A DNA stretch of 32,000 bases. Source: Methanocaldococcus jannaschii DSM 2661. GTDB lineage: Archaea > AGJL01 > Methanococci > Methanococcales > Methanocaldococcaceae. Where the stretch lies: NCBI RefSeq assembly GCF_000091665.1, contig NC_001732.1, forward strand, positions 22,128-54,127, in the 5' to 3' direction. Shown here one piece after another: positions 5,764-24,741 of the stretch. The notes below the pieces were generated by a model, which did no database searches, was not told where the DNA came from, and was given only the letters and a program-made list of their open reading frames with translations. Positions within the stretch are counted from its first letter, which is position 1. Each line of letters begins with the position of its first letter. The position numbers and the translations under genes were made by a program.

Positions 5764-5787
5764 TGAATTGACTTTAAAGTCCATTCA
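5764..5787. repeat. Palindromic element, copy 1 (one arm mismatch)
   Basis: TGAATTGACTT-TA-AAGTCCATTCA. It is intergenic and upstream of parA. It belongs to the family with consensus (G)TGAATTGACTT-YR-AAGTCAATTCA(C). Confidence 0.8.
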
Positions 5788-8394: not shown

Positions 8395-8420
8395 GTGAAT
8401 TGACTTTGAAGTCAATTCAC
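8395..8420. repeat. Palindromic element, copy 2 (perfect)
   Basis: GTGAATTGACTT-TG-AAGTCAATTCAC, with perfect 12-bp arms and a 2-nt centre. It lies 21 nt downstream of the stop of the 162-aa gene. Confidence 0.9.
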
Positions 8421-8440: not shown

Positions 8441-8929
8441 CTAAAGCTTCTCCAAATCCAATGGAACATATTTTACAATATAAGCCTTATTTACAATAAC
8501 AACATCTCCCTTTCCAACATCAACCAAGACAGTATAAGGGTCCTTACAACAGCATTTGCCCTCCAACACTTCACCATTAGCCAAATGCAACCTAACCTTA
8601 TGATTATGGCAAAAGAATAAAACATAATCTTTTCTCTCTTGAGTACTAACACACGTTTCCCTAACCCTCTTTGGCTGCTTTTTACCTTTGCCCTGTTTTT
8701 TCTGGCCAGTTTGTTTTTTACCATTATTTTTAGATTTTTGACTTTCCAACTTTTTAAGCTCTTTTTCAATCTCTTCTAAATGCTTACTTTTAACGTGTTT
8801 CCTAACAACCTTAGCATCAGCATTAGTATAATCACAAAAAGGACATTTATAAAAACCAATATCATTCTTTTGAAGCTCTAACTTCTCAACATACTCATCA
8901 ACATTCACAATCTCACCTAGAATATCCAA
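8441..8929 (-). CDS. C2H2 zinc-finger / Lys-rich linker / Sm(Hfq)-like domain fusion protein
   Basis: 162-aa ORF with no in-frame ATG. The start is TTG 8929 or GTG 8908 (the latter preceded by GGTGAG). The N-terminal 'YKCPFCDYTNADAKVVRKHVKSKH' has C-x2-C...H-x4-H spacing. The linker is basic: 'KSKNNGKKQTGQKKQGKGKKQPKR'. The C-terminal 'KVRLHLANGEVLEGKCCCKDPYTVLVDVGKGDVVIVNKAYIVKYV' follows the Sm1/Sm2 pattern of Hfq/Sm proteins (h-x-h-x-L-x-N-G-x-x-L-x-G ... D-x-[FY]-x-h-L-h ... h-x-K-x-A-[IY]). Confidence 0.65.
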   Translation of the reverse strand: MDILGEIVNVDEYVEKLELQKNDIGFYKCPFCDYTNADAKVVRKHVKSKHLEEIEKELKKLESQKSKNNGKKQTGQKKQGKGKKQPKRVRETCVSTQERKDYVLFFCHNHKVRLHLANGEVLEGKCCCKDPYTVLVDVGKGDVVIVNKAYIVKYVPLDLEKL

Positions 8930-13222: not shown

Positions 13223-13265
13223 TGGTCACTCACCTTACTGTGGGTAGTATATATTCATTGGTCAC
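13208..13265. repeat. 21-22-nt direct repeat spanning the rep gene start codon and its upstream region
   Basis: TAGTATATTATTCATTGGTCAC (13208-13229, which contains start codon 13220-13222) is repeated as TAGTATATATTCATTGGTCAC (13245-13265). A third partial copy, 'cttggtcat', is at ~13270. Confidence 0.75.
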
Positions 13266-13434
13266 ATCTCTTGGTCATACACCTCGACCATGCCTACACT
13301 AAATACTCCCTAATGTTGCAATACCTTAACATATAATGCAATACAATACTGAGCTCTTTTGATACAATCTATGTAATTTAAAGAGTATAAGAAACATTTT
13401 CAGGGGGCGACCATTTCTATATTATTTTTTGAAG

Positions 13435-13604
13435 TATATAAACTTTTAGTTATTTTTTGAATTTGTATATTTGGATTTATATCATATAACTTTTTCTGAA
13501 AATTTTTCCTGACATATCTATTAGGTAGTTAGTATATATATATTTTTCGGATTTTTGCATGTTTTTACACTTTATCTTCTAATTTTATAACTAAAAGTTT
13601 ATAT
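13435..13604. repeat. 18-bp inverted repeat pair flanking a ~130-bp AT-rich spacer (replication-origin candidate)
   Basis: TATATAAACTTTTAGTTAT (13435-13453) is matched by ATAACTAAAAGTTTATAT (13587-13604), which is the reverse complement over 18 nt. It lies in the ~860-bp ORF-free region immediately upstream of the primase-helicase gene. Confidence 0.5.
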
Positions 13605-13982
13605 TTTTCAAATAAAAAGGTTTATATACTATGAAATCATAGTATTGCTTGATTACAAAATTATTTTTTTGATAATAATGCCTATTTTTTCTTAATTCGT
13701 TGTGTGGTTGATAAAATTGTTAGCAGCATTTATGTTTTATATTTTAAAAAGAAAAGCATTAAATCTACATTTATTGTTATTATCTTATTTTTTGTGTCTT
13801 TTTTATCTTCTGTAAACTCTTATAAATCTCTTATATAGTATTATAATTATTCTATAAAAATATGTGGATTAAGTTGGGTAAGAAAAATGTGCGAAATAGG
13901 GGCTAAAATAATATTAAAACATTAATGTCTTTTGTCTAGTGTTACATTTTTAGTTACGTCTTTAACCACTTTTATTAGTACA

Positions 13983-14008
13983 GTGAATTGGCGTTGAATT
14001 CAATTTAC
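13983..14008. repeat. Palindromic element, degenerate copy
   Basis: GTGAATTGGCGT-TG-AATTCAATTTAC. It has the same ends and centre as the family consensus, with several arm substitutions. Confidence 0.55.
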
Positions 14009-14089
14009 AAAAGAGACATTCTATATATATAATTTACTTATAATTATATTCAAAAATAGTGTTATAATAAACAAATGGATAAAATGGGC

Positions 14090-14293
14090 TTATTTCTTTA
14101 AAGCTAATTTTATATCTTCAACTTTTACTGTTTTTCTCTTTGCGTGCTTAGCTAAATCAACTGCTTCCTTAGCAATTTCTAATGCAATTTCTTCAAATGC
14201 CTCTGCTAAGTATTCTGCTGCAGCCCTACTAACTCTTTCAGCTCCAACTTTTTTCAAGATTCTCTCAAATGGTGCAACTGGAAGCTCAGTCAC
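14090..14293 (-). CDS. Archaeal histone (HMf/HMt family, single histone fold)
   Basis: 67 aa: '[66 protein letters not shown]'. This is the canonical archaeal histone pattern (ELP-h-AP...RVS..A......E......A...A.HA.RKTV...DI.LA). It has a GTG start with GAGG 7 nt upstream. Confidence 0.95.
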
Positions 14294-14305
14294 AACACTA
14301 CCTCT

Positions 14306-14329
14306 TTGTATATGTAGAGTGTAGAAGCT
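14306..14329. repeat. Conserved 24-nt box, copy 1 (abuts the histone RBS)
   Basis: TTGTATATGTAGAGTGTAGAAGCT compared with TTGTGTATGTAGAGTGCAGAAACT at 19614-19637. Both are in the same orientation and 21/24 positions are identical. Confidence 0.75.
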
Positions 14330-14410
14330 CTAATAACCTACAAAGTGGGAGTTCAAATTTGCTAAACTTTAAGCTCCCTTAATGGAAACTCGAAACTAAA
14401 ATAAGTAAAA

Positions 14411-14505
14411 CCATAATACAATAATACAATCATTCAATAATATCATAAAATCATAATTTAGTAATGCAATAATCCAATAACTCCACAATAACATAATAAA
14501 ATAAC
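14411..14505. repeat. Array of degenerate ~8-bp units (CAATAATA)
   Basis: Units start at 14412, 14419, 14427, 14435, 14444 and 14452: 'CATAATA|CAATAATA|CAATCATT|CAATAATAT|CATAAAAT|CATAATTT'. The array continues with 'gcaataat ccaataac .. cacaataa cataataa'. Confidence 0.7.
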
Positions 14506-14510
14506 TTTGA

Positions 14511-14533
14511 GTTTCCACTAAAAGAAATTCAAA
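14511..14533. repeat. 22-nt box TTTCCACTAAAAGAAATTCAAA, followed by GGTGGGG
   Basis: 14512-14533 is the exact reverse complement of 16469-16490 ('tttgaatttcttttagtggaaa'). Partial copies are at 5718-5734 ('ggtttcactaaaagaag') and 23033-23050 ('ccatttccactaaaataa'). Confidence 0.8.
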
Positions 14534-14556
14534 GGTGGGGTTAATAAATTTCTTAT

Positions 14557-14582
14557 ATGAATTGACTTCAAAGTCAATTCAC
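14557..14582. repeat. Palindromic element, copy 3
   Basis: ATGAATTGACTT-CA-AAGTCAATTCAC, with 11-bp perfect arms. The centre CA is the reverse complement of the TG centre in copies 2 and 6. Confidence 0.9.
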
Positions 14583-14640
14583 AAAAAAGAAATGTCACCC
14601 ATCACATCATAAACACATCCACCGACATACTAATCAAAAT

Positions 14641-14715
14641 TTAATTATTGAATTATTAAATTAAACAATAACATAATAACATAATTATTACATTATGTTA
14701 TTATTTAAAATAACC
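14641..14715. repeat. Short octamer-type array containing a 13-bp inverted repeat
   Basis: ATAATAACATAAT (14673-14685) and ATTATGTTATTAT (14692-14704) are reverse complements separated by 6 nt. They are embedded in 'aataacataataacataat' units. Confidence 0.6.
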
Positions 14716-14908
14716 ATAAAACTCCAGATAGTATTATTGGGTCCTCGTAAAAATATAGTCGTTCAATTGAACCATAATATTGCTAATATTGGTCATTCTA
14801 CTGAACCAATATATAAATGTTTTTTATCATTAGTTAGGGTTCAAATTGGCAACTTCACCTTATTTATATAGTATTTCATGAAAATGTAGTAATTTTCAAA
14901 CTACTATT

Positions 14909-14932
14909 TGAATTAACTTTAAAATCAGTTAA
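14909..14932. repeat. Palindromic element, degenerate copy
   Basis: TGAATTAACTT-TA-AAATCAGTTAA, with 4 substitutions relative to the 24-nt core consensus. Confidence 0.45.
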
Positions 14933-15020
14933 AAGAAATATTTTATTCTTAATCCTATTGAGGGAACTTTAAAACCACAAAGTTATTTGGTTTGGAATGC
15001 AATAAAAAGAGTACTGTAAA

Positions 15021-15482
15021 TTATTCTTTAATTATCTCAATAAAATCTACTTTTTCAAAGTCAGAATCAAAGGTAGCTAATTTATTTATCCTATAATATT
15101 TACAAGTGGCTATTATGATTGCATCGTTTGTTAAAAGGTTGTATTTTTTACCTATTTCAGGAGCTAATTTTAAAACTTCCCAATTTGTATCTAATATTTT
15201 TAAGTAGTTCATTTTAATCATTTTATCAATTTTTTCTCTAACTTCTTCATATACCCAAGAATATCTATTTAAATTCTTTTTTAAATCATAAACTCCTCTA
15301 ATTCCATCTTCTAATGCTATATGAAATGTCACTTTAAACATTGTTTCAGAAAAGACTATTGGATTTATGCATAACATAAAACCATCATTTATTAGTTTAG
15401 ATAATAATTTATGAGCTTTTTCATCTCCAATAAATAATCCAACCATGACTGAAGAATCAATAAAAACATTAGAAGGACTCAT
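15021..15482 (-). CDS. vapC: PIN-domain ribonuclease toxin (VapC-like)
   Basis: 153 aa with the PIN acidic residues in the expected order: 'VFIDSSVMV' (Asp), 'FSETMF' (Glu), 'LLTNDAIIIA' (Asp), 'ATFDSDF' (Asp). The ATG overlaps the upstream small gene by 14 nt. Confidence 0.85.
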   Translation of the reverse strand: MSPSNVFIDSSVMVGLFIGDEKAHKLLSKLINDGFMLCINPIVFSETMFKVTFHIALEDGIRGVYDLKKNLNRYSWVYEEVREKIDKMIKMNYLKILDTNWEVLKLAPEIGKKYNLLTNDAIIIATCKYYRINKLATFDSDFEKVDFIEIIKE

Positions 15483-15675
15483 AATATGCCTCTTTTAATT
15501 TTTTATAATCGATATCTTTACACTTTTTTATTATCATAGATTTTAAAAACTCTTCTACATCATCATTAACAATTTTAATTTTTAATCTCTTTTTACCCTT
15601 TATTTTTAATGGTTTTAATGGTTTTAAAACTCCATCTTCGTAAATAACTTCAATAATTTCTGACATATAAATCAC
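15469..15675 (-). CDS. Small antitoxin partner of the PIN toxin (AF2212/DUF104-like pattern)
   Basis: 'EVIYEDGVLKPLKPLKIKGKKRLKIKI' matches the 'Y-E-[DN]-G-V-L-K-P-L' signature of the small archaeal antitoxins that pair with PIN genes. The track start is GTG 15675. The ATG at 15666 follows GGTGAT plus 4 nt and is more likely (65 aa). Confidence 0.8.
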   Translation of the reverse strand: MIYMSEIIEVIYEDGVLKPLKPLKIKGKKRLKIKIVNDDVEEFLKSMIIKKCKDIDYKKLKEAYYESF

Positions 15676-15898
15676 CAGAGGCCTTTATTTTTCTATTTTT
15701 CTAAGGTAATATTTAAACCTTCTTTCGAAGTGTATATTATTGTTTTTTGAGAATTGAGAAAAGTTTAATTTGACAGTTTCTTAAATGATAGACAGAGAGT
15801 ATATGATAATTATATATTTAACTTTTTATTATTTTATACTCTTCGTTTATACTCCCTTATCTTGGTTTCTGAACGTGCAGCATTTTTAGGCTGCCACC

Positions 15899-15923
15899 TG
15901 AATTGACTTTAAAGTCAATGCAC
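15899..15923. repeat. Palindromic element, copy 4 (one arm mismatch)
   Basis: TGAATTGACTT-TA-AAGTCAATGCAC. It lies ~95 nt outside the left inverted repeat of the 7.2-kb segment. Confidence 0.8.
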
Positions 15924-16005
15924 TCTCTTTCTAACGATGAATATATAACATATAAACAGAGAAATAATACTACTAAAACATCTATATTTAAAGGTGGTGC
16001 TTACA

Positions 16006-16225
16006 TTTTTCTTATTTTTCTCCCCCTCCCTCTCGGGCTCTCCCCTCCCCCTCTTTTTAATTTTTCTATTTTAAAATTTAAATTAATATAATTATTAATT
16101 TGACAATTTGACAAGTTTTTTTATTTTTTATTATTGTTTTATTTTGATTGTATTTTTTGTTTTTGTTTGTTTTTATCCTATTTTTTTGCTTGTTTTGTTT
16201 TCTTTTGTTTTTTGTTTGATTGTAT
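16006..16225. repeat. Left copy of a ~200-bp inverted repeat (G/C-rich mirror core plus T-rich arm)
   Basis: The core CTCCCCCTCCCTCTCGGGCTCTCCCCTCCCCCTC (16020-16053) is the exact reverse complement of 23195-23228 (34/34). The inward-running T-rich part ('taatttgacaagttttt..attgttttattttgattgtattttttgttt..gttttgttt..ttgtttgatt') aligns with the reverse complement of 23045-23194, with small indels. Confidence 0.9.
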
Positions 16226-16575
16226 TTTGCATCGGTATTTTGTATTTTCTTTAGTAGGAGTTTGTATTATGTTTTTATTGTATTGTTGGATTATGTTGTC
16301 ATGTTATTATTGTATTATTTAGTTATTGTATTATAATTTGTATTTTGTATTTCCTTAATGGAGAGAGGTTATTTATTTTATTGTTTTATTGTATTATTTT
16401 ATTATGTTATTAATTAATAGTTGTATTCTTTTATTATGCAATTATGTTATTCTTATGGTGTTGTTGTGTTTGAATTTCTTTTAGTGGAAATTTGAATTAT
16501 GTTATTGTTGTATTATGTTATTGCAGTGTTATTTAATTGTTGTATTATTTTACTTTGTAATTATGTTGTTCTCGT
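16221..16575. repeat. Long array of degenerate ~8-bp units in the T-rich orientation (TATTATTG)
   Basis: 'GTATTATG|TTTTTATT|GTATTGTT|GGATTATG|TTGTCATG|TTATTATT|GTATTATT|TAGTTATT|GTATTATA' runs from 16264 onward. The array is interrupted by the dyad box 'tttccttaatggagagagg' (16350-16368) and the 22-nt box (16469-16490). Confidence 0.7.
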
Positions 16576-16697
16576 GAGTTTGTTTTTTTAGGTTTTAATA
16601 GAGTGTGTTCAAAAATAGGTTGTAAGATATGGTTAGAATAGTCTTTGCTAAATTAAAAATAATTAGGTGGTAGAAAGATGAGGGTTTATTTTTCTGA

Positions 16698-18014
16698 TTA
16701 GTCTAAGGTAGTTTGCCAACTTTTTATAGCTCCAATTTCTTCTTTACATGATTCTTTAAATTTTCTTGCCATTCTTTTATCTTTAATCACTTTAATTCTC
16801 CATTTTCTTGATACTTTCTTAAGATATCCTTTTAAATTTCTATTACTAAATAACTTTAATGTTTCTTCAATTCGTTTACTGACTATGTTTTTATAATCCT
16901 TATAGAAATAATCAATTATGGAGATACTTGTGCTTCTGTATAATGCATCCATTATAGTCCCTACAGTAAACTCTTTTTCAACAAGTGAGTCCATATTTAT
17001 AGAAATATTGAGAGCATCAATTAACTTAAGAACATTTGCATTTAGAGGTTTATTTTCTGGTAATATTACAATATCTTTATCTACTCTTAATAATTTATTT
17101 TCTTTGTCTATTATACATTTCTTCTTACAAAGTTTTTGTATAATGTTTTCAATTTCTTTAAAATCATCTTCTTTTAAACTTTCTAATGAGTATTCACCTT
17201 TTGGGAGAATAATCTTTTTACTAAATACCATCCCCACTTCTGGCTCATCGTGTCCAGATAATGCCATAGATACGAGTTCTCTAAGTATAAGAATTTTAAA
17301 TAAACTTCCCTCTTTGTCATTCTCAGCATCGCAAATCAGTAAATCATAGGAAGGTTTCTCTTTTTCTCCCCAAGTTATTGGAAATATTTTATTTAGCTTT
17401 TGATTTTCATAATTACCACGTTCGAGTGAAATTTCTCCAGGTGAAACTTTTAAAATTTGAATGTCTTCTGTATCTTTTAAAACAGGATGTGTAGTTAAGT
17501 CATCAAATGACATGTAACTTACATCAGACTTATATAATCTAGGATTTTTTGTGACAGAAATGTATCCTTTGTTTATAATAACATGTAGATTCTCTTTTAA
17601 TTTCAGATATTTTTCTAATTGCTCTTTTTTGATACTTTTAGATTTGCATTCAAAAATAAGAACATGTGTATCATTATCATTAACAAGTATAACATCTGGA
17701 GTTATTTCTGCAGGATTGCCATTTTTAGTATAATATATTCCATCAAGAACGATTCTTACACCAAGAGTACTACCTTTTTTGGGTCGATATCCCAAGTCAT
17801 ATAGATGATGGGGAAAATATTTTATAGGATAAACAAGATTTAATATTATGTTGATTAGTTTAGTATGTTGAGATTGATAATCTTCAAGATTTTCTGAAAT
17901 TAAAGCGGTTATATATTCAATAATATCTTTATATGAAGGTTCTGTTGAGGTTTTCTTCTTTCCATATTTCTCGAAATAAAAATCTAAAGTTCTGTTATCT
18001 AATTCTTTCCCCAT
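16698..18014 (-). CDS. Hypothetical protein with an N-terminal PD-(D/E)xK nuclease-like motif
   Basis: 438 aa. A GAGGTGG RBS lies 6 nt before ATG 18014, inside the 3' end of the upstream gene (20-nt overlap). 'ITPDVILVNDNDTHVLIFECKSKSIKK' (aa ~104-130) gives P-D...E-x-K with the spacing and hydrophobic strands typical of restriction-endonuclease-fold nucleases. I recognised nothing in the remaining ~300 aa. Confidence 0.8.
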   Translation of the reverse strand: MGKELDNRTLDFYFEKYGKKKTSTEPSYKDIIEYITALISENLEDYQSQHTKLINIILNLVYPIKYFPHHLYDLGYRPKKGSTLGVRIVLDGIYYTKNGNPAEITPDVILVNDNDTHVLIFECKSKSIKKEQLEKYLKLKENLHVIINKGYISVTKNPRLYKSDVSYMSFDDLTTHPVLKDTEDIQILKVSPGEISLERGNYENQKLNKIFPITWGEKEKPSYDLLICDAENDKEGSLFKILILRELVSMALSGHDEPEVGMVFSKKIILPKGEYSLESLKEDDFKEIENIIQKLCKKKCIIDKENKLLRVDKDIVILPENKPLNANVLKLIDALNISINMDSLVEKEFTVGTIMDALYRSTSISIIDYFYKDYKNIVSKRIEETLKLFSNRNLKGYLKKVSRKWRIKVIKDKRMARKFKESCKEEIGAIKSWQTTLD

Positions 18015-19221
18015 ACTTTTCCACCTCTAAAATTGTCTCAGAATCATACGTCTGTTGGATATTAGATAGTAATCTTAGAGCAGTGTTTCCACATGAGCCT
18101 TTAGGTAAGTATAGTCTCATCCACCATGGAGTAACTTCTAATGAAAACCTATCTCCATTGTGCAAATCCACTCCTGAAATGTAATACATATCTTCTTCAA
18201 CTTGTTTGGCTAACCCCCAAATTTTAAAAGGTTCTTTTACTGATATTAGTCCCTCTACAAAGTTTTTTAAATCTTCAATTTCTTTTTCAAATTCGTAAAT
18301 TAGTGGTATTCTATCGCCCCAATCACTTGAAGTATAGTCAATTAGAGAATCTTCAATAATTTCAATTTTTTGTTCGTAATTTTCTATAGTTTTATCTACA
18401 ATTTCATTGTGTTTTTCTATTGATGTTCCTTTAACTGTAAATTTCCCCCAATAATAAATATCCTCCAAGACAAATTTATCTTTATCATCTTCTGAAACTA
18501 TCTTTATTTTTGATTTTGTAATTCTCATTAAGTGTTTAAATTCATGTAATTTTTTGATAGTGTTAAATATCTTTTTTATTTTTGTATCATTTAACAATTG
18601 GAAATCCTTAATTAGTTTTTCAAATTCTTGAATCTCATCTGAAGATAATGATTGGATAATTTTAATTAACTCATAGACACTTTCCCCATTACTACTAATT
18701 GATAATTTATTAGCCCTCTCTTCAACATCATTATCTAAGTAAAATGGAGTTTCATCATGTTTAGTTGATAACCCCCTAACATAATCTGCTTTTTTTAGGA
18801 ATTTTTCTAAATCACCTGTGGGCATCCATAGGTTATCTAATCTTGATTTTATTGGACTTATTAATTTATTAAAATATTTATCAGACTCTTCTGATTTTTG
18901 TAATGTGTATAATTTCCAAAATCTTGGGTTTTTAGCATCTATGAAAAAGTAACCTTCATCACCAATACGTAACATGTAGAACTCATATTCATCTAATGGT
19001 TTTATTTTTCCAGTTTTTATTATTCTTGATAATTTTTTGGGATGGATATTCGACTCTAAAATATATGTTTTTACAACATTTTGTTCGGGTTCTAATTTCG
19101 TATCGTCTAAAATGTCTTTATAAGACCTTTCCATGTTTCTTTCTAACCATTCGTATAACTGAGGACGATTTGTTATGTCGGGTATAGCACTTCCAACAAA
19201 TATTGTGTCCATAATTATCAC
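17995..19221 (-). CDS. Hypothetical protein (no recognisable motif), first gene of a two-gene operon
   Basis: 408-aa ORF. The track start is GTG 19221; the ATG at 19212 is preceded by GGAGTGTGAT. Codon and amino-acid usage look like the neighbouring real genes. It is translationally coupled to the 438-aa gene. Confidence 0.75.
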   Translation of the reverse strand: MIIMDTIFVGSAIPDITNRPQLYEWLERNMERSYKDILDDTKLEPEQNVVKTYILESNIHPKKLSRIIKTGKIKPLDEYEFYMLRIGDEGYFFIDAKNPRFWKLYTLQKSEESDKYFNKLISPIKSRLDNLWMPTGDLEKFLKKADYVRGLSTKHDETPFYLDNDVEERANKLSISSNGESVYELIKIIQSLSSDEIQEFEKLIKDFQLLNDTKIKKIFNTIKKLHEFKHLMRITKSKIKIVSEDDKDKFVLEDIYYWGKFTVKGTSIEKHNEIVDKTIENYEQKIEIIEDSLIDYTSSDWGDRIPLIYEFEKEIEDLKNFVEGLISVKEPFKIWGLAKQVEEDMYYISGVDLHNGDRFSLEVTPWWMRLYLPKGSCGNTALRLLSNIQQTYDSETILEVEKYGERIR

Positions 19222-19539
19222 ACTCCTTAATAACAGTAAAAACAGTGTAAGGTATTAAAAAACCGTCCTAATAAATACCAGCTTATTTATTTTTTGAATA
19301 ATTTGTTTTTAATGAATAAAAAATTTTCTTTCTCACTGGTGTGTCCAATATTAGAGTTGTGAGTATTATATACTCATAGCAACAAAAGATGGAAATCAGA
19401 GTCGTGGTTTATTAAACATAGGATAAAATCTTGAAAATATTCGATAATGTCATTAAGAATCTACTTTACTCTTAGATTTGAATTCAATAAATGATAGTGT
19501 TAATGTTATTGTTTTTAAATTTGGGTCTAATAATACTAT

Positions 19540-19565
19540 GTGAATTGACTTTGAAATCAATTCAC
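19540..19565. repeat. Palindromic element, copy 6 (one arm mismatch)
   Basis: GTGAATTGACTT-TG-AAATCAATTCAC. It lies ~320 nt upstream of the 408-aa gene start. Confidence 0.85.
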
Positions 19566-19613
19566 GTGAGGATCTTATCCCCTCATAATACTCCAAAAAA
19601 CAAAAACTATTAC

Positions 19614-19637
19614 TTGTGTATGTAGAGTGCAGAAACT
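19614..19637. repeat. Conserved 24-nt box, copy 2
   Basis: TTGTGTATGTAGAGTGCAGAAACT; see 14306-14329. Confidence 0.75.
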
Positions 19638-19680
19638 ACACCTCAAAGTATGAACTCTAGTCCGCAATTTTGAATTTTCT

Positions 19681-19790
19681 TTAATTATGTTATTATTGCA
19701 TTGTTGAATTATGTTGTTATATTATTATTAAATTATTTATTTATTGTATTATTGTCTTGTAGGCTATTATAAACTTGTATTTTGTACTTC
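19681..19790. repeat. Array of degenerate ~8-bp units (T-rich orientation), ending in a TTCC-N8-GGAA dyad box
   Basis: 'ATTATGTT|ATTATTGC|ATTGTTGA|ATTATGTT|GTTATATT|ATTATTAA|ATTATTTA|TTTATTGT|ATTATTGT' is followed by 'cttccttattaatggaaatc' (19788-19807). Confidence 0.65.
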
Positions 19791-20100
19791 CTTATTAATG
19801 GAAATCATCCATTATTGCTTATGTGGGCGTTATAGTATTATAGGAAGTTTATATTGTTAGAATTAACATTAAAAAGCTCTAAGTATCTATTTTCTAGATT
19901 TTTAGATTTTTATGACTAAACTCAAATTTCAAAAACATGGATTGTGAGTCTATACCGCTACATATAAAAAGTGTGAAAAGATAACAATCTCAATTTTATT
20001 GGATTCTAAATTGCATTACAAAATTAAATTGAAATATTAAATGAGCTTAAAAAAAGAAGAAATTACCAACCACTGAATAAAAATATGATTAAATTTGCAA

Positions 20101-20988
20101 TTATTCTTTGTTTTCGCATTTTTTTTGAATGACTTCTAAGATTTCTTTTTCTAATTTTAGTATTTCATTTATTGTTGTTTTAAAGGTATCTATTTCAGAC
20201 TTTAATGTATTAAATTTAGTATCAAACTTTTCATCAATCTTATTTACTTCTTCGGATAAAATTTCAATTTTATTCCATATTGGAGTTGTTACATCTCTTG
20301 TCGCAACACCGAGTATACCTCTAATGAATTGTTTTGTTACCAACTCTTCCTTATTTATTGGGAAATCATAGATTCTTACAAAACCAGATGCTGATTGCTT
20401 ATAGGATATTATAAAAGCGTGTGCATACTGTACATTATCTATGGCTACAGCTAATGGATTAATTGAAACTCCAGAAACTCCATGAGGTGGTGTCTTATTA
20501 TGAGGTTTTGTACCAACCCATAGGGGAAGACTTAACACTATACCTGATATTGTCAAACTAATACGTTTATTAGTAGTAATATAATTTGGATTCATGCTAA
20601 GCACGTTTTGCATAACTGGCGGATTCAATTTCTGATTATCATCTGCTCTCCCAACATATTGGGGACTATCACCCATCCAAACAATAATTTGACCTGCATT
20701 AAGAAATCTCCTTAGTAGGCTGTTTGATGTAGGATTATCCGGATTATCTAAAACTAAATCAGGAACAACATCTTGAGCAAATACTACCACATATTCTTTA
20801 TTTGTATCTTTAGAACCCTCCCCTAACACCCTCTGCAAACTGGGAGCGTCAATAACTTCAAAATCATATTTTTCTAGTTCTTTAGATATATGCTTAGCCA
20901 CATTATGAGGTATCCAGCTGTAAGGATAACGTTCATCATAGTATACATACAACTTCTTTTCAGTTAGTCCTGGTGTCATATGTTTCAC
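20101..20988 (-). CDS. Hypothetical partner protein of the OLD-family nuclease (globular N-domain plus C-terminal coiled coil)
   Basis: 295-aa track ORF starting at GTG 20988. The ATG at 20979 is more likely (292 aa): GGGTGA (20990-20985), which contains the OLD stop codon, sits 5 nt upstream. The C-terminal ~60 aa ('[49 protein letters not shown]') are heptad-like. The N-domain segment '[12 protein letters not shown]...[19 protein letters not shown]' is reminiscent of flavodoxin/GATase1-like folds, but only weakly. Confidence 0.75.
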
Positions 20989-22877
20989 CCTAGTTCACTA
21001 TCTATATTTAAAATAATCTTCTTGATATCTTCTGGAACTTCAGTAAGTCTTGATACTATCTTTTCTGCGATTTTACATTTCAAATATCGTTCAATCGATC
21101 TACCACTGTCCCACCCTAATGTAATAATAAACTCTTCGTCTACATTTTTTAAAACTGTGAATAATTTTCCACTAAGTTTGTGCAATAAATCTTTTTCATT
21201 TTTACCTTCTTCATTCTTACAAGCACCAAAAATTTTGATTTCATCTATAATAGATTTAATTTCTTCGTCTTGGAGAACTTCTTCATATTTATCTTTGAGA
21301 CATTCTCTTAGTAATTCATCAAGTGCGAGAATGAAATCTTCAGGTTTTATGTATCCTAGTATATCTTTTTTCTCTATTATAAATACTTCAAAATTCTCAC
21401 GTAAGCCCATATCCTTAGCTATTTTAACATTCTTTAATCCCTCTTCATCATTATCAGCAATTAAAAACACTTTAATCCCGTAATCCTCCTTAAATACTTT
21501 TATCATCTCTTTTAGACTTCTTTGAGCATAGGGTATTATAATATAGCTAAATTTAGGAAGATTTTTAAGTTGTTCTATGAGCAAATCTATGTAACCTTGC
21601 AGTATTATCCGATCGCTGTTTCCTTCGACAAGTATTGCGACATCTGAGAAAAGGAAATAACCTGGTACAACACCCAGATCTCTAGCAAGTGATTCACTAA
21701 GCCTGCTACCACGGAATGGATAAAAGATTCTTGTAGCTAGAAGCTCTGTTGGGTATCCTTCAAAGTTAATTTTAATTGAATCTTTTCGAACACCTATAAC
21801 AAACCTCTTATCTTTAAGAGTGGCAATGAAATCTGGAGAATGTGTAACTATGATTAACTGAACATTTAAATTATTAGCTAAGTCTTCCAACACCCTTGCC
21901 AAACGTCTTATATATGCAGGATGTAAGTGAATTTCTGGCTCTTCTATCAAAAATATATGATGTTTTCCTTTAGATATTATTGAAGCTAATATTCCATCAA
22001 TAATCTGATCTCCACTTCCAAAAAGTTCATAATTTAATGACATACCTTCATATGATTTTGTTAAAATTTCAGTTCTATCAGGTTGTTCATACGTGTCTAC
22101 ACTTCCTTTTATCTCTCTAAGACAATCATATAACATTCTAAGTCGTGCAAAATCTTTTATCGTGTTTTTAATGACATTTATTAATTCAGAAGATACCATA
22201 GGATGGGCAAAAAGGCCTTTAATTGGGATATTTACCATTTTATAGATCTCAGGGAATGTATTCACATAGCATATCTTATTTTTTATAAGATCTATGAATA
22301 TATTAAAGACATCTTTATTTTTTATAGTACCGCTTTCCACAATTACACATGGCACTAAAGAATCTCCAGTCTTTGACTCGATATTATGCCCTGTCACCTT
22401 ACTGTGGATTTCTTTCATTTTCTTTAAAGCTTCTTTTGCAATCTTGGATGTCTCTGATACGTAACCAAATATTATCACATTTTGGAGCTTCCATATAATT
22501 TGATTATTATTACTCTCAATGGATACTTCAATATATGCTTTCTTAACATTACTTTCTAAACCACATACCTCCCTCAATTTGTCGCCTTCTCCTTCATCAA
22601 AGTTTAGCCATACAGCAAGTTTTATAGGGTAATTCTGGTAAGTGTAAAACCATAATCTTCTAATTTGATCTTTTAAGTTTTGTTCAGTTATGGTAGTGAT
22701 ATTAAGATTTTTCTCAGTAGAATTAGTGTCGAGATTTTCAAATATGATCCTTATAACATTAAGTATCGATGTTTTTCCAGAACTATTTTTGCCTATAAGC
22801 ACTGTAACTTTCCCAAATTCTACAGTTAGATCATAAATGCTTCTAAAGTTTTCTATTTTAACCTGTTCTATTTTCAT
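20985..22877 (-). CDS. OLD-family nuclease: ABC-type ATPase fused to a C-terminal TOPRIM domain
   Basis: 630 aa. The N-terminal '[32 protein letters not shown]' contains Walker A. 'ELFGSGDQ' is signature-like, '[15 protein letters not shown]' is Walker B/D-loop, and '[10 protein letters not shown]' is the H-loop. TOPRIM motifs are '[14 protein letters not shown]' (Glu) and '[12 protein letters not shown]' (DxD). Confidence 0.88.
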
Positions 22878-23044
22878 ACACTACAACCCCTTAGTAGATT
22901 GTAGATATAACATAAAAAATATACTAATATCATTAATTTAAAAATTTTCATTATTATTAAATTTACTATTATTCTAGAAATTTGTTATAGAGTGCTATGG
23001 TTCTTCATTAAGCAATAAGAAGAAGCTTTCTACCATTTCCACTA

Positions 23045-23243
23045 AAATAAACATAAAAAATCAAACAAAAAAACAAAACAAAATAAAAATAAGTACAAAC
23101 AAAAAATACAATCAAAAATAAAACAACAATAAAATAAAAACTTGTCAAAATAAGTAAATTAATAATTTTTAAACTAAAAAATAAAAAATTAAAAGAGGGG
23201 GAGGGGAGAGCCCGAGAGGGAGGGGGAGGAAACAGAAAGAAAA
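23045..23243. repeat. Right copy of the ~200-bp inverted repeat
   Basis: The core GAGGGGGAGGGGAGAGCCCGAGAGGGAGGGGGAG (23195-23228) is at the outer end. The A-rich arm runs inward to ~23045 and ends in 'ccatttccactaaaa'. This copy is shorter than the left one and has no long octamer array. Confidence 0.9.
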
Positions 23244-23263
23244 TAAAAACAGAAAACAGTAAA

Positions 23264-23707
23264 CTAATTCCCCACAATCAACTTATAATCCTCCTCAGGA
23301 ATCTCCCTCATAGCCTTACCCATCAAATGCCCACTCCACCTCTTCTTATTAGTAATAAATTTAAGCTTCGGGATCAACTCCTTAAAATTAATTGGTGGTT
23401 CAAAGACTTTAATTTCCTTTAATTTAACTCTATATGGAAACTTCTCATTAGGATTTCTTGGAGTTGGCTTAAAAATTTTTGAACTATCCTTATAAACCTC
23501 TGAAACAACCTCATAAACTCCTCTTATGTATGGGGGTTTATAATCCTTTCCACTCCTCTGAATCTCATAAATAATCAGCTTATCTCCTACTTTAACTTTG
23601 TTTATGGTGTTTTTGTACCTCTCTGCTACACCCCAAATCTTCTTCTCTTTTATAACCTTCCAGTTATCCTCGTTGGTTATACAGAGCCAGTATGCCATAA
23701 GATCCAC
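23264..23707 (-). CDS. EVE / PUA-like (ASCH-superfamily) domain protein
   Basis: 147-aa track ORF starting at GTG; the ATG at 23698 gives '[13 protein letters not shown]...'. The pattern 'YWL..t......v......WGV.....N.i.[11 protein letters not shown]......GV.EVVSE...D' matches stand-alone EVE/PUA-like domain proteins. From memory this is the UPF0310 family. Confidence 0.75.
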
Positions 23708-23812
23708 TATAATTAACTTTTTAATAACTTTTTCAATAAAAAATATTTTTAGAGCTTTTGTAATATATAACCTATTAGATTTGGGAGGTACTTTCTATAT
23801 TTGGTGGTTGTT

Positions 23813-23971
23813 ATGAGATTTTTAACGCTTGTGGTAGTAATTATTTTGCTGTTATTCCCAGTATTTGCTGGTTGTATTGGTAGAGTTTGGGATAATGACT
23901 CTGGGGGAGGTTTTTTGTTAATACTTTTAGAAAATGAGACTTCAAATATACATTTAATACATCTGATGTAG
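23813..23971 (+). CDS. Small ORF with signal-peptide/lipobox-like N-terminus (not in the supplied track; 52 aa)
   Basis: My own translation gives 'MRFLTLVVVIILLLFPVFAGCIGRVWDNDSGGGFLLILLENETSNIHLIHLM*'. GGTGG lies a few nt upstream of ATG 23813. The sequence has a hydrophobic core followed by 'FAGC'. It sits directly upstream of, and on the same strand as, the 237-aa ORF. Confidence 0.3.
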   Translation: MRFLTLVVVIILLLFPVFAGCIGRVWDNDSGGGFLLILLENETSNIHLIHLM

Positions 23972-24027
23972 ACATTTTTAAATTCTGTAATATTTCTAAT
24001 AATGAAACCTGTATTGTAATTGGGAAA

Positions 24028-24741
24028 ATGAATAATTTTAGTAAAAATTTAGAAGAATGTTTTCAAAAATATGGATATGAGAATTTTACACTTTTATTGG
24101 CTGGATATATTGCAAAATATCCTAAATATGAAGAAATCTCTAACAATACCAAATTTCTAAATGAATATCATAATGAAGTATCAAATATTACTACTTGCCT
24201 ACATGTTTATAAAAACTTAGCAGAGGGTGTTAAAAGAGATTTCAACCTTGATTTACTATATCTTAATGATTATGAAATTAAAAAAGTAAAATCTATGGTT
24301 GAGCCTAACGTAATTAGTGATGCAATAACCGTTGTAACACTTGTTAATGATTATAATAATCTTATTGATGCTGCAAGAAATGTTAAAAAGGGAGATAAAG
24401 AATCCTATACAAAATTCTATATTGCATTGGGAATTGTAGTGTTTGATGTAATTTTAATAAAAGAGAATGTGGCTTATAAGGTAAGTTATAAACTTGTAGG
24501 AATTTTAATTAGTAAAACGGGCTTCTATAAAGTTATTTACAAGTATGGTGGAAGCACAGCATTAAAACCTATAGAGAGTTGTACACATTGGATATCTCGA
24601 GGAGAAATTAATAGTATGCCCAGTAAATTGTATAACAATTCAGATAAATTAACAAACATTTCAATAAAAATTAACACTTCAAAACTGTATAACAAGAGTA
24701 TAAACACTATAAGAAGTAAAATAATGGAGGTTTCAAGTTAG
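24028..24741 (+). CDS. Hypothetical protein with one or two hydrophobic segments
   Basis: 237-aa ORF with coding-like composition. The hydrophobic stretch 'FYIALGIVVFDVILI' and 'YKLVGILISKTGF' suggest membrane association. I recognised no motif. Confidence 0.55.
   Translation: MNNFSKNLEECFQKYGYENFTLLLAGYIAKYPKYEEISNNTKFLNEYHNEVSNITTCLHVYKNLAEGVKRDFNLDLLYLNDYEIKKVKSMVEPNVISDAITVVTLVNDYNNLIDAARNVKKGDKESYTKFYIALGIVVFDVILIKENVAYKVSYKLVGILISKTGFYKVIYKYGGSTALKPIESCTHWISRGEINSMPSKLYNNSDKLTNISIKINTSKLYNKSINTIRSKIMEVSS

What the first reader, a model, noticed from the sequence alone, without database searches (positions are those of the whole stretch)
16006..23243. ~7.2-kb four-gene segment bounded by ~200-bp inverted repeats: candidate mobile or invertible defence cassette
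The left repeat (16006-16225) and right repeat (23045-23243) are reverse complements. They share a 34/34-identical G/C-rich core at the outer ends (16020-16053 / 23195-23228) and alignable T/A-rich arms running inward. Between them lie only two coupled gene pairs, all on the minus strand: 408 aa + 438 aa PD-(D/E)xK, and OLD nuclease + ~292-aa partner. They are separated by a repeat-module spacer (19222-20100). No transposase or integrase lies inside. The repeats could therefore mark a recombination-delivered cassette, a substrate for inversion by homologous recombination, or the ends of a non-autonomous element.
Basis: seen in the sequence. Interest (0 to 1): 0.7.

Follow-up and report, generated by a model that had tools for sequence, protein, structure and literature searches.

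The report
Inverted junction repeats around two nuclease modules
The inverted repeat is real, but it is two copies of a conserved non-coding junction module of an archaeal plasmid family, bracketing two independently inherited nuclease gene pairs; there is no sign of a transposon or a proven invertible cassette.

Summary
Window 16016-16213 and 23232-23046 are reverse complements (80% over 201 nt, E=5e-42). They share a 38-nt perfect core, and exactly four minus-strand genes lie between them. The window is the Methanocaldococcus jannaschii large extrachromosomal element (genes MJECL32-35).

The "mobile cassette" reading is not supported.
- The segment is a composite. MJECL33+32 occurs alone in Methanotorris igneus as a 2,649-bp block, 92% identical, that ends about 460 nt and 3.7 kb short of the two arms.
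- OLD+MJECL34 occurs alone in other archaeal contigs, without any flanking repeats.
- There is no target-site duplication, no transposase or recombinase in the window, and no tRNA/att signature.

Vent-metagenome relatives of the plasmid (87% identical) are informative. One carries a third copy of the repeat in a different gene context. Its core is conserved 34/35 (a perfect mirror repeat and G-quadruplex motif), while its T-rich arm is only 59-71% identical. Another relative has a different OLD nuclease in the slot next to the EVE gene.

Best reading: a conserved junction/boundary module (core + TTGACAAG + oligo-T array + D1 head) that marks joints between exchangeable gene modules. The inverted orientation allows inversion but not deletion. 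Inversion itself could not be tested.

The parts
15900..15921 (.). Palindrome P (GAATTGACTTTAAAGTCAAT), about 100 nt outside the left core. It belongs to a 5-6-copy family in the window.
   Evidence: 11 strand-matches against 0.02 expected. Copies at 5765, 8397, 14559, (14910, weak), 15900 and 19542. The five clear copies lie about 160-320 nt upstream of an operon start.
15996..16019 (+). Left module: T-rich pre-core tract (TTTTTCTTATTTTT)
   Evidence: Partly conserved in all three module copies (alignment A5; 60-70% identity).
16020..16057 (+). Left core: 34-nt polypyrimidine near-mirror repeat plus TTTT (38 nt identical to the right copy). The G-rich strand is the minus strand and carries a G-quadruplex motif.
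16058..16115 (+). Left module: about 90% A+T spacer with TATA-like strings, then duplicated TTTGACAA/TTTGACAAG
   Evidence: TTTGACAAGTTTTT is invariant in all three copies.
16116..16229 (+). Left module: oligo-T array (about 10-nt unit GTTTGTTTTT). 11 runs of T>=5 on the + strand and none on the - strand.
16239..16567 (+). Three tandem D1 modules. Each has a head (TTTCTTTAGTRGR) and about 9 copies of an 8-nt unit (TTGTATTA/TGTTATTA). There are 13 TTGTATT motifs, all on the + strand.
   Evidence: D1a (16239-16334) is 95% identical to L065.
16698..18014 (-). MJECL32, 438 aa, with a PD-(D/E)xK-type motif (TPDVIL...FECKS)
   Evidence: No Pfam, NCBIfam, PADLOC or PDB sequence hit.
17995..19212 (-). 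MJECL33, 405 aa from the ATG. Its 3' end overlaps the MJECL32 start by 20 nt. Function unknown.
   Evidence: phrog_22469 E=1e-47. AF2 model pLDDT 84 with no convincing fold match.
16687..19331 (-). Self-contained MJECL33-32 module (110-nt promoter region plus 2 genes) shared with the Methanotorris igneus chromosome
   Evidence: 92.1% identity over 2,649 nt. The flanks are unrelated.
19213..20100 (.). Spacer between the two modules: palindrome P (19542-19563), a short C-box (CCCCTC) and D1c (19657-19762, + strand)
20101..20979 (-). MJECL34, 292 aa, the conserved partner of the OLD nuclease. It has a glutamine-amidotransferase/ThuA-like alpha/beta domain plus a long C-terminal helix.
20985..22877 (-). 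MJECL35, 630-aa OLD-family ATPase-TOPRIM nuclease
23033..23056 (-). Right module: D1 head only (TTTTAGTGGAAAT). The repeat ends here, about 155 nt upstream of the OLD start.
23044..23140 (-). Right module: oligo-T array. 9 runs of T>=5 on the - strand and 1 on the + strand.
23136..23148 (-). Right module: invariant TTGACAAGTTTTT
23191..23228 (-). Right core (38 nt identical to the left). The G-rich strand is the + strand. L001 reads it as the 35-nt perfect mirror form.
23229..23250 (-). Right module: T-rich pre-core tract, starting about 15 nt after the EVE stop codon
23264..23707 (-). Flank: MJECL36, an EVE/YTH-like protein (PDB 2P5D). In relative L074 the homology breaks 10 nt before its stop codon.
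15021..15675 (-). Flank: VapB-like (AF2212-like) and PIN (VapC) toxin-antitoxin pair

Best explanation
The two arms are inverted copies of a conserved, non-coding 'junction module' of the M. jannaschii large-ECE plasmid family.

Anatomy of the module, read inward from each outer end:
- a T-rich tract;
- a 34/35-nt polypyrimidine mirror-repeat core (a G-quadruplex motif on the opposite strand);
- a roughly 45-nt A+T spacer with TATA-like strings;
- an invariant TTTGACAAGTTTTT;
- a 100-115-nt oligo-T array;
- the head of a D1 module.

The 7.2 kb between the arms is not one element. It is two independent two-gene nuclease modules that landed side by side in a variable slot of a defence-rich plasmid region. 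One is OLD MJECL35 with its GATase-fold partner MJECL34. The other is MJECL33 with the PD-(D/E)xK protein MJECL32.

How it most likely works:
- Inferred: the module is a boundary element. Its oligo-T arrays face any RNA polymerase entering the segment from outside, and oligo-T is the archaeal termination signal. The arms would therefore insulate the nuclease modules from read-in transcription: read-through from EVE on the right, antisense transcription on the left.
- Supported by comparison: together with palindrome P and the D1 arrays, it is one of a small set of shared intergenic sequences. These are kept while the genes between them are swapped among related plasmids. They therefore act as homologous linkers at which modules are exchanged.
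- Inferred: two copies in inverted orientation can only invert the enclosed DNA, not delete it. That would explain why this arrangement persists.

Shown: the repeat, its uniqueness in the window, core conservation in a relative, the independence of the two gene pairs, and the variable slot. Inferred: the terminator/insulator role, the linker role, and any role of DNA structure at the core.
For: - The repeat is real and non-random.
- Source: MJECL34 is 100% identical to an M. jannaschii protein on a 58,407-bp contig.
- Composite content. M. igneus shares only window 16687-19331 (92%, 2,649 nt). Thermococcus has the MJECL33-32 pair alone. OLD+MJECL34 occurs alone next to GmrSD, Mrr, DUF499/DUF1156 or IS1 fragments, with no inverted repeats and no arm similarity.
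- Relatives: 21 stretches found by scanning metagenomes for palindrome P, most of them AT-rich contigs that align to the window, at 87% mean identity over 17 kb in total.
- L065 shares mainly the non-coding modules and a histone gene with the window. It holds a third copy of the module, next to different genes (a 105-aa protein and a TrmB-like protein).
- Within the module, identity is 34/35 for the core, 95% for D1a and only 59-71% for the T-array. Invariant blocks sit in fast-evolving filler.
- L074 has a different, 912-aa OLD nuclease between EVE and palindrome P, so the slot is variable.
- L007 and L084 switch context exactly at P copies.
- The arms are the two densest T>=5 clusters in the window, on opposite, inward-reading strands: 11/0 on the left and 9/1 on the right.
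- No target-site duplication, no recombinase homologue in the window, no tRNA, no Rfam family.
Against: - Function is inferred from anatomy only; no transcript or termination data were available.
- The core itself is unexplained by a terminator role. The C-strand has no significant hairpin (z from -0.3 to -1.9).
- TATA-like strings plus the invariant TTGACAAG could equally mean a promoter reading inward.
- The left region, with its iteron-like arrays, also looks like a plasmid origin.
- Only three copies of the module are known, so the 'junction' role rests on few instances.
- My 22-mer scans of genomes and metagenomes spanned the variable C-run. They were blind to the 35-nt form and did miss L065. 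Other copies in the host chromosome or in the rest of the plasmid are therefore not excluded.
- Only about 25 of the 35 kb of the L065 contig was seen, so a second inverted copy there cannot be ruled out.
Confidence: 0.5

Rival explanations
1. Plasmid-maintenance element. The left region (P palindrome, GC-rich core, about 90% A+T stretch, strand-asymmetric T-array, three arrays of 8-nt iterons) is the replication origin or a partition/copy-control locus of the ECE. The right arm is a truncated duplicate, for example a handcuffing or incompatibility site.
For: - 15667-16697 is the largest non-coding region in the window.
- 13 TTGTATT motifs, all on one strand, lie within 400 nt, where about 0.25 are expected. 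TRF finds 8/16/24-nt arrays.
- The architecture of GC-rich block, AT-rich stretch and iterons resembles iteron-plasmid origins (established knowledge).
- The non-coding modules are the part best shared with relative L065, whose genes differ.
- P also sits upstream of ParA.
Against: - No recognisable Rep gene adjoins the region.
- D1 arrays also occur at 14413-14504 and 19683-19755, without a core.
- There is no skew inflection at the site beyond local composition.
- The right copy lacks the iterons.
- Nothing was tested experimentally.
Confidence: 0.18
2. Invertible segment. Recombination between the two arms flips the 7.2 kb, producing two isomers. It could be homologous recombination seeded by the 38-nt identical core, or a site-specific recombinase encoded outside the window.
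For: - Inverted geometry with a 38-nt perfect core.
- Related plasmids and M. igneus carry a small tyrosine recombinase + HTH_7 pair near these modules.
- The L065 copy resembles the right arm slightly more before the core (19/27 vs 18/30) and neither arm clearly after it, apart from carrying D1a as the left arm does. This is weak evidence for past crossovers at the core.
Against: - No recombinase homologue in the 32-kb window (best tblastn E>2).
- Inversion would not switch a promoter or a gene end, because each pair keeps its own promoter region inside the segment.
- All four genes are co-oriented with their neighbours.
- No contig crosses a core, so no isomer was seen.
- Only 38 nt are identical, with about 80% identity beyond.
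Confidence: 0.12
3. Neutral relic. An inverted duplication of a roughly 240-bp intergenic stretch arose as a by-product when the gene modules were inserted. It has no present function, and the perfect core reflects recent gene conversion or slower decay of complex GC-rich sequence than of slippage-prone T-runs.
For: - The T-arrays are microsatellite-like and differ by many indels.
- With 87% background identity, at most one change in 35 nt between the ECE and L065 is not extreme, about 0.1 (my own estimate from the 87% identity).
Against: - Within the window, a 38-nt perfect run against 80% arms has p about 2e-4.
- The same blocks (core, TTTGACAAGTTTTT, D1 head) are invariant in all three copies while the filler falls to 59-71%, well below the 87% background.
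- The mirror symmetry is never matched in 20,000 composition-matched shuffles.
Confidence: 0.13
4. Mobile cassette. The arms are the terminal inverted repeats of a non-autonomous transposon, or the ends of an integrated linear element, that carried all four genes in together.
For: - The inverted repeats have their best-conserved part at the outer ends, and no other genes lie inside.
- The right edge of the L074 polymorphism lies about 20 nt from the right arm's outer end.
Against: - The two gene pairs have separate histories.
- No target-site duplication and no transposase.
- The module occurs singly in another context.
- The left edge of the L074 polymorphism is at P (14582), 1.4 kb outside the left core.
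- Homologous loci lack the repeats.
Confidence: 0.04

Closest known systems
Conserved linker/boundary sequences between exchangeable modules in mosaic mobile genomes (Botstein's modular theory for lambdoid phages; recombination hot-spot slots in defence islands)
   Same: Short non-coding sequences are retained between otherwise different gene modules in related replicons, and rearrangement breakpoints fall at them (L007, L074, L084 at P; L065 shares mainly the P/D1/core modules).
   Different: Here the linker is elaborate: a mirror-repeat/G4 core, an invariant TTGACAAG, an oligo-T array and 8-nt arrays. It is present as an inverted pair, and the host is a hyperthermophilic methanogen plasmid. 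No recombination was observed directly.
Terminal inverted repeats of transposons, MITEs and composite transposons
   Same: Two inverted copies, best conserved at their outer ends, bracketing cargo genes.
   Different: No target-site duplication, no transposase, and no multi-copy family. The cargo is two separately inherited modules, and the repeat also occurs singly elsewhere.
Programmed invertible segments (Hin/Gin/Cin, shufflons, the fim switch)
   Same: Inverted repeats flanking a few kb of DNA.
   Different: No adjacent recombinase, no promoter or gene end positioned to be switched, and the arms are far longer and more degenerate than typical recombinase sites.
Archaeal oligo-T intrinsic terminators
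   Same: Dense T>=5 runs on the strand read by incoming polymerase. The right arm starts about 15 nt after the EVE stop codon.
   Different: Arrays of 9-11 T-runs over about 200 nt, plus a conserved GC-rich core, go far beyond a normal terminator. The left copy has no upstream gene on its strand.
OLD-family nuclease systems (class 1 standalone; class 2 Gabija GajA/GajB; class 3 retron-linked; class 4 PARIS; class 5 Cran1)
   Same: MJECL35 has the ABC-ATPase + TOPRIM architecture and hits the GajA, AriA and Old models.
   Different: Its conserved partner MJECL34 has a GATase/ThuA-like fold with a long helix. By fold it is neither a UvrD helicase nor a reverse transcriptase. Its model is a soluble alpha/beta domain plus a helix, unlike the membrane partner of class 5, though no transmembrane prediction was run (classes from PMC12796447).
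Iteron-type plasmid replication origins
   Same: A GC-rich block, an AT-rich stretch and arrays of short direct repeats in the left region.
   Different: No adjacent initiator gene. The arrays recur at other sites, and the right copy lacks them.

Membership tests
Transposon / MITE / composite transposon | Terminal inverted repeats at the element ends | tested here: met
   80% over 201 nt with a 38-nt perfect outer core
Transposon / MITE / composite transposon | Target-site duplication directly outside the ends | tested here: not met
   No direct repeat of 6 nt or more within 30 nt of either core end
Transposon / MITE / composite transposon | A transposase inside, or multiple dispersed copies mobilised in trans | tested here: not met
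   No transposase or integrase domain in the four proteins. There are only two copies in the window. None was found in the genome scans, although the 22-mer used was blind to the 35-nt form.
Transposon / MITE / composite transposon | The bounded unit is present or absent as a whole, with breakpoints at the repeat ends | tested here: not met
   The two gene pairs occur separately. The L074 polymorphism runs from the EVE stop to P at 14582, not core to core.
Programmed invertible segment | A cognate site-specific recombinase encoded nearby | tested here: not met
   No Pfam or PHROG recombinase in the window. tblastn with the relatives' tyrosine recombinase/HTH pair gives E>0.06 for every hit. 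The other 26 kb of the plasmid was not seen.
Programmed invertible segment | Both orientations coexist in a population | not testable with these tools
   No contig crosses either core. L001 runs exactly core to core, and the JGI contigs stop at 15914, 22906 and 23033.
Gabija (class 2 OLD system) | GajA-type OLD ATPase-TOPRIM nuclease | tested here: met
   PADLOC GajA 5e-32, AriA 1.9e-34, Old 8.7e-31. Pfam AAA_15 + OLD-like_TOPRIM.
Gabija (class 2 OLD system) | An adjacent GajB UvrD/SF1 helicase partner | tested here: not met
   The partner MJECL34 has no helicase domain. The AF2 model (pLDDT 88) matches GATase/ThuA-like folds at E from 3e-4 to 0.07.
PD-(D/E)xK nuclease (MJECL32) | A conserved D...(D/E)xK catalytic motif | tested here: met
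   TPD[VI][IL]L ... FECKS is conserved in all four full-length homologues.
PD-(D/E)xK nuclease (MJECL32) | The restriction-endonuclease-like alpha-beta-beta-beta-alpha-beta fold | not tested
There were no sequence hits to PDB.
G-quadruplex motif | Four G-runs of at least 3 with loops of 1-12 nt | tested here: met
   G5-A-G4-N11-G3(4)-A-G5. These are the only two such motifs in 32 kb. The 35-nt form gives a four-layer prediction. Formation in vitro or in vivo was not testable.
H-DNA-type mirror repeat | A homopurine/homopyrimidine tract with mirror symmetry | tested here: met
   31 of 34 bases are pyrimidines. 33 of 34 bases pair in the mirror alignment, which carries a 1-nt shift. The 35-nt form is a perfect mirror. 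0 of 20,000 shuffles reach this.
Archaeal oligo-T terminator | Runs of at least 5 T on the non-template strand downstream of a gene | tested here: met
   9 runs on the minus strand starting 17 nt after the EVE stop, and 11 runs on the plus strand of the left arm. These are the highest densities in the window. Actual termination was not testable.
Iteron plasmid origin | Iteron arrays next to an AT-rich unwinding region and an initiator gene | tested here: inconclusive
   Arrays and an AT-rich stretch are present on the left only. No identifiable initiator lies adjacent.
Integrative element att sites | Direct repeats derived from a tRNA gene, plus an integrase | tested here: not met
   The repeats are inverted. 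There is no tRNA in the window and no integrase.

The most novel reading that the evidence does not exclude
The conserved perfect-mirror/G-quadruplex core is a functional DNA-structure element. In this reading it is a polar boundary, or a crossover site, at which a family of hyperthermophile plasmids exchanges and insulates toxic nuclease (defence) modules. It might be recognised by a plasmid-encoded factor, such as the small tyrosine recombinase + HTH pair seen in relatives or the C2H2 zinc-finger protein at 8441-8929. The paired, inward-facing copies would then be a deliberate 'bracket' around the cargo.
Probability: 0.12. Interest if true: 0.7.

Novelty: new variant of a known kind. Interest (0 to 1): 0.42.

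Why it matters
If the junction-module reading is right, the first sequenced archaeal plasmid belongs to a family whose conserved backbone is largely non-coding (palindrome P, D1 arrays and the core module), while its genes are swapped in and out. These genes include several nuclease-based candidate defence systems. That would give a concrete, testable handle on how defence modules are shuffled in hyperthermophilic archaea, where almost nothing is known.

The core is also a rare thing in itself: a deeply conserved G4/H-DNA motif in a 31%-GC genome growing at 85 C.

Two by-products have separate value. One is an unclassified OLD-nuclease system with a GATase-fold partner. The other is a 92%-identical two-gene module shared across genera. 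If instead the repeat is a relic, the main value is negative: this is not a new mobile element.

Tried and rejected
- Structured RNA. Rfam at E<=1 over 13000-24500 found nothing. Folding of the C-strand gives z from -0.3 to -1.9.
- tRNA-derived att site. No tRNA in the window.
- Coding repeat. The arms differ by 1-, 3- and 12-nt gaps and are 61% T. The small ORFs in the D1 modules vary in length (17/30/32 aa) and look like T-rich codon noise, although D1a is identical in L065.
- Alternative junction in L009. Its first 21 nt are TruSeq adapter, so it is an artefact.
- Dispersed family. The core 22-mer gave 0 hits in genomes, metagenomes and viral contigs, but that pattern spanned the variable C-run and missed L065. 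The shared 23-mer was rescanned only in viral contigs, with 0 hits. The arm 21-mer gave 40 chance hits in unrelated taxa (mostly AT-rich bacteria), none in Methanococcales.
- PLSDB and INPHARED hold nothing related.
- The bacterial promoter/terminator scan was uninformative, with counts equal to shuffles.
- Literature. No paper in the library describes this repeat.
- MJECL33 fold search. No convincing match; TMq stays below 0.2 except one hit at 0.20.
- The afdb50 fold library was unavailable.

Full report
**1. Observation**

The repeat is real. An unbiased search returns arms 16016-16173 / 23075-23232. Gapped BLAST of the window against itself gives 16016-16213 vs 23232-23046, 80.1% over 201 nt, E=4.8e-42. 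This is the strongest non-coding self-match in the 32 kb.

The 34-nt core is exact on opposite strands at 16020-16053 and 23195-23228. It has no third copy at up to 3 mismatches, with 0 expected in shuffles. Perfect identity runs 38 nt. With 80%-identical arms, that has a probability of about 2e-4.

Between the arms lie exactly four minus-strand genes in two tightly linked pairs. None has a transposase or integrase domain.

**2. Source**

Neighbouring gene calls carry the Pfam names MJECL32/33/34. The 292-aa protein is 100% identical to an M. jannaschii protein on a 58,407-bp contig. The window is therefore the large extrachromosomal element (ECE). The genes are MJECL32 (16698-18014), MJECL33 (17995-19212), MJECL34 (20101-20979) and MJECL35 (20985-22877). 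The flank at 23264-23707 is MJECL36, the EVE/YTH-like protein of PDB 2P5D.

The wider window is a defence-rich plasmid region: VapBC, type I R-M, a PIN_2 protein and a large helicase, together with ParA.

**3. Gene content**

- MJECL35 is an OLD-family ABC-ATPase/TOPRIM nuclease (Pfam AAA_15 9.6e-30, OLD-like_TOPRIM 1.2e-9; PADLOC AriA/GajA/Old 1e-31 to 1e-34; PDB 6p74).
- MJECL34, its partner, belongs to a tiny family of 15 clusters. In every locus fetched, the homologue follows an OLD gene directly. A confident model (pLDDT 88) shows an alpha/beta domain plus a 60-residue helix. Its fold hits are weak but consistent, to class-I glutamine-amidotransferase/ThuA-like domains (E from 3e-4 to 0.07, TMq 0.35-0.40). 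The partner's fold does not match the partner of any of the partnered OLD classes 2-5 listed in PMC12796447.
- MJECL32 has a conserved TPD...FECKS (PD-ExK) motif.
- MJECL33 matches only a virus/provirus family of unknown function (phrog_22469, 1e-47). It has no convincing structural relative.
- 'Defence' is plausible from the families and neighbourhoods but untested. At least one archaeal OLD protein, Cran1, is reported not to act in defence.

**4. The 7.2 kb is a composite, not a unit**

- MJECL32 has an 88%-identical homologue, and MJECL33 a 95%-identical one, on the Methanotorris igneus chromosome.
- At the DNA level the two genomes share a single block, window 19331 to 16687, 92.1% over 2,649 nt. 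It starts 110 nt upstream of the MJECL33 start and ends 11 nt after the MJECL32 stop. The flanks are unrelated.
- The block stops about 460 nt inside the left arm's inner edge and 3.7 kb short of the right arm. It excludes the D1 arrays and palindrome P.
- In M. igneus the pair lies among integrase, IS and PCNA genes, with no OLD or MJECL34. Thermococcus sp. 18S1 also has the pair alone.
- Conversely, OLD+MJECL34 pairs in eight fetched loci (three sets of contigs) sit next to GmrSD, Mrr, DUF499/DUF1156, IS1 fragments or glycosyltransferases. They lack MJECL32/33, have no flanking inverted repeats, and show no similarity to the arms.
- No direct repeat of 6 nt or more flanks the cores, and there is no tRNA.

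**5. Relatives of the plasmid**

Palindrome P (GAATTGACTTTRAAGTCAATTC) occurs 5-6 times in the window. The clear copies lie 160-320 nt upstream of an operon start. Scanning metagenomes for P recovered 21 stretches of DNA. Most of these are AT-rich vent-type contigs that align to the window, at 87% mean identity over 17 kb in total. Three results bear on the finding.

(a) L065 carries a third copy of the module, at 892-1170.
- Its core is CTCCCCCTCCCCTCTCGGGCTCTCCCCTCCCCCTC. That is the window core plus one C, a perfect 35-nt mirror repeat. It is followed by TTTGACAAGTTTTT, a T-array and a D1 module.
- Its flanks differ from both window copies. A convergent 105-aa gene and a TrmB-like gene come next, then P, then an HTH_7 + tyrosine-recombinase pair.
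- L065 otherwise shares mainly non-coding modules (plus short stretches of a histone and an ATPase gene) with the window.

(b) L074 joins EVE (88% identical) to a convergent, different 912-aa OLD-family gene after only 31 nt. P and the D1 region of window 14582-14423 follow.
- Homology to the window breaks 10 nt before the EVE stop.
- The slot beside EVE is therefore variable and holds different OLD nucleases in different plasmids. The replaced region runs from EVE to P at 14582, so it includes VapBC. It does not run core to core.

(c) L007 and L084 change context exactly at P copies.

**6. Anatomy and conservation of the module**

A three-way alignment shows invariant blocks in fast-evolving filler: the pre-core TTTTCTT tract, the core, TCTTTT-AATT, TTTGACAAGTTTTT, TTTTATTRTTG and the D1 head. 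Identities are 34/35 for the core, 95% for D1a and 59-71% for the T-array, against the 87% background.

- Core. 31 of 34 bases are pyrimidines and it is mirror-symmetric; 0 of 20,000 composition-matched shuffles do as well. Its complement, G5-A-G4-N11-G3/4-A-G5, gives the only two G-quadruplex motifs in the window. It has no significant Watson-Crick fold and no Rfam match.
- Arms. They are the densest clusters of T>=5 runs in the window, each on the strand read by a polymerase entering the segment: 11 vs 0 on the left and 9 vs 1 on the right.
- Left arm. It continues into three tandem D1 modules, each with about nine 8-nt units. Thirteen TTGTATT motifs lie on one strand, where about 0.25 are expected.
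- Right arm. It keeps only a D1 head.
- D1 elsewhere. D1 also occurs with P but without the long core at 14407-14533 and 19657-19762. In both places a short C-box (CCCCACC / CCCCTC) sits where the core would be.

**7. Interpretation**

The arms are two inverted copies of a conserved non-coding junction module of this plasmid family. They are not the ends of a mobile element.

Oligo-T is the archaeal termination signal (established knowledge). The inward-facing T-arrays would therefore stop read-through from EVE on the right and antisense read-in on the left, which amounts to an insulator role (inference).

The comparative data show that P, D1 and the core module persist while the genes between them are exchanged, and that breakpoints fall at them. 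That fits homologous linkers for module shuffling (supported by few instances). Inverted copies can invert the enclosed DNA but cannot delete it, which may be why this pair survives (inference). The role of the core itself is unknown; DNA structure, a protein-binding site and a crossover point are all possible.

**8. Rivals**

- Replication/partition locus. This is a serious rival because the left region has an iteron-like architecture. It lacks an adjacent initiator, and the arrays recur elsewhere.
- Inversion. It is physically possible. However, no recombinase homologue lies in the window, nothing would be switched by flipping, and no data could show isomers.
- Neutral relic. It fits poorly with the block-wise conservation.
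- Transposon. This reading fails four of its five membership rows.

**9. Limits**

- No assembly crosses a core. L001 runs exactly 23228 to 16034, and the JGI contigs stop at 15914, 22906 and 23033.
- L009 has adapter fused at 16019. The core is probably hard to sequence.
- My first core pattern spanned the C-run that varies between the 34- and 35-nt forms. The negative genome and metagenome scans therefore exclude only the 34-nt form, and those scan quotas are exhausted.
- The window's own record appears to be masked in the collections.
- The other 26 kb of the plasmid and the host chromosome were not examined directly.
- L001 reads the right core as the 35-nt form. The 1996 reference may carry a homopolymer miscall.

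Noticed in passing
window 5765-5786, 8397-8418, 14559-14580, 14910-14929 (weak), 15900-15921, 19542-19563: A 22-bp palindrome (GAATTGACTTTRAAGTCAATTC) recurs 5-6 times; the five clear copies lie 160-320 nt upstream of an operon start, including parA. It is also on 21 metagenome stretches, several with 2-3 copies, and rearrangement breakpoints fall at it. It is a candidate operator or centromere site for a plasmid-encoded binding protein.
   Followed up: partly
window 14413-14504(-), 16262-16334, 16369-16437, 16492-16567, 19683-19755(+): There are five arrays of an 8-nt unit (TTGTATTA/TGTTATTA, about 9 copies each). Most are preceded by a head like TTTGAATTTCTTTTAGTGGAAA, which contains an ORB-like AGTGGAAA. 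Short hydrophobic ORFs (17-32 aa, e.g. MFLLYCWIMLSCYYCII with a GGAG upstream) overlap them. The 17-aa one is identical in relative L065, but ORF length is not conserved among copies.
   Followed up: partly
window 20101-22877 (MJECL34 + MJECL35): An OLD nuclease with a conserved 292-aa partner that has a GATase/ThuA-like fold and a long helix. This two-gene system does not fit OLD classes 1-5. There are only 15 partner clusters, all from archaeal or hydrothermal-type sequences.
   Followed up: partly
window 16687-19331 vs L022 8684-11328 (Methanotorris igneus CP002737): A 2.65-kb promoter-plus-two-gene module is 92% identical between a Methanocaldococcus plasmid and the chromosome of another genus. 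That implies recent horizontal transfer of MJECL33-32 as a self-contained unit. In M. igneus it lies in an integrase/IS240/PCNA region.
   Followed up: yes
L074 2020-4758: In a related plasmid, the slot downstream of the EVE gene holds a different, 912-aa OLD-family nuclease on the opposite strand. This is a variable defence slot.
   Followed up: partly
L001 1-35 vs window 23195-23228: An independent Illumina assembly of the same strain, and the natural relative L065, both read the core with an extra C (CCCC rather than CCC). That makes it a perfect 35-nt mirror and a four-layer G4 motif. The reference may have a homopolymer miscall, or the run may slip.
   Followed up: partly
L009 1-21; ends of L001-L013: TruSeq adapter is fused exactly at window 16019, the outer edge of the core. 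Every short-read contig ends at or before a core or T-array. This suggests the core or arms block sequencing or PCR (a structure-forming sequence), or that coverage there is simply low.
   Followed up: no
L065 4358-5546; L022 4962-6028: A small tyrosine recombinase plus an HTH_7 protein form a conserved pair (44% and 58% identity) in a related plasmid and in the M. igneus island. No homologue exists in this 32-kb window.
   Followed up: partly
L007 1455-3770: A contig identical to the window from 16011 down to 14558 then continues into DUF3226 and split AAA_15 genes that are absent from the window. The switch comes right after a P copy, so it is either another genomic copy of P or an assembly chimera at the repeat.
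   Followed up: no
L002 4213-4228 (window 18616-18681); L006 2824-2904 (window 20061-20209): Two mock-community assemblies differ from the window by small replacements inside MJECL33 (which splits the ORF) and at the MJECL34 3' end. These are either strain variants or assembly errors.
   Followed up: no
window 8441-8929: A C2H2 zinc-finger protein of 162 aa, probably the MJECL27 mentioned in PMC2926602 (identity not checked). C2H2 fingers often bind G-rich DNA, so it is a speculative candidate binder of the core.
   Followed up: no
window 3006-5489: An 827-aa beta-propeller (PQQ/BamB-like) protein gene with extensive internal DNA repeats (65-78% identity). It dominates the self-similarity map of the window.
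   Followed up: no
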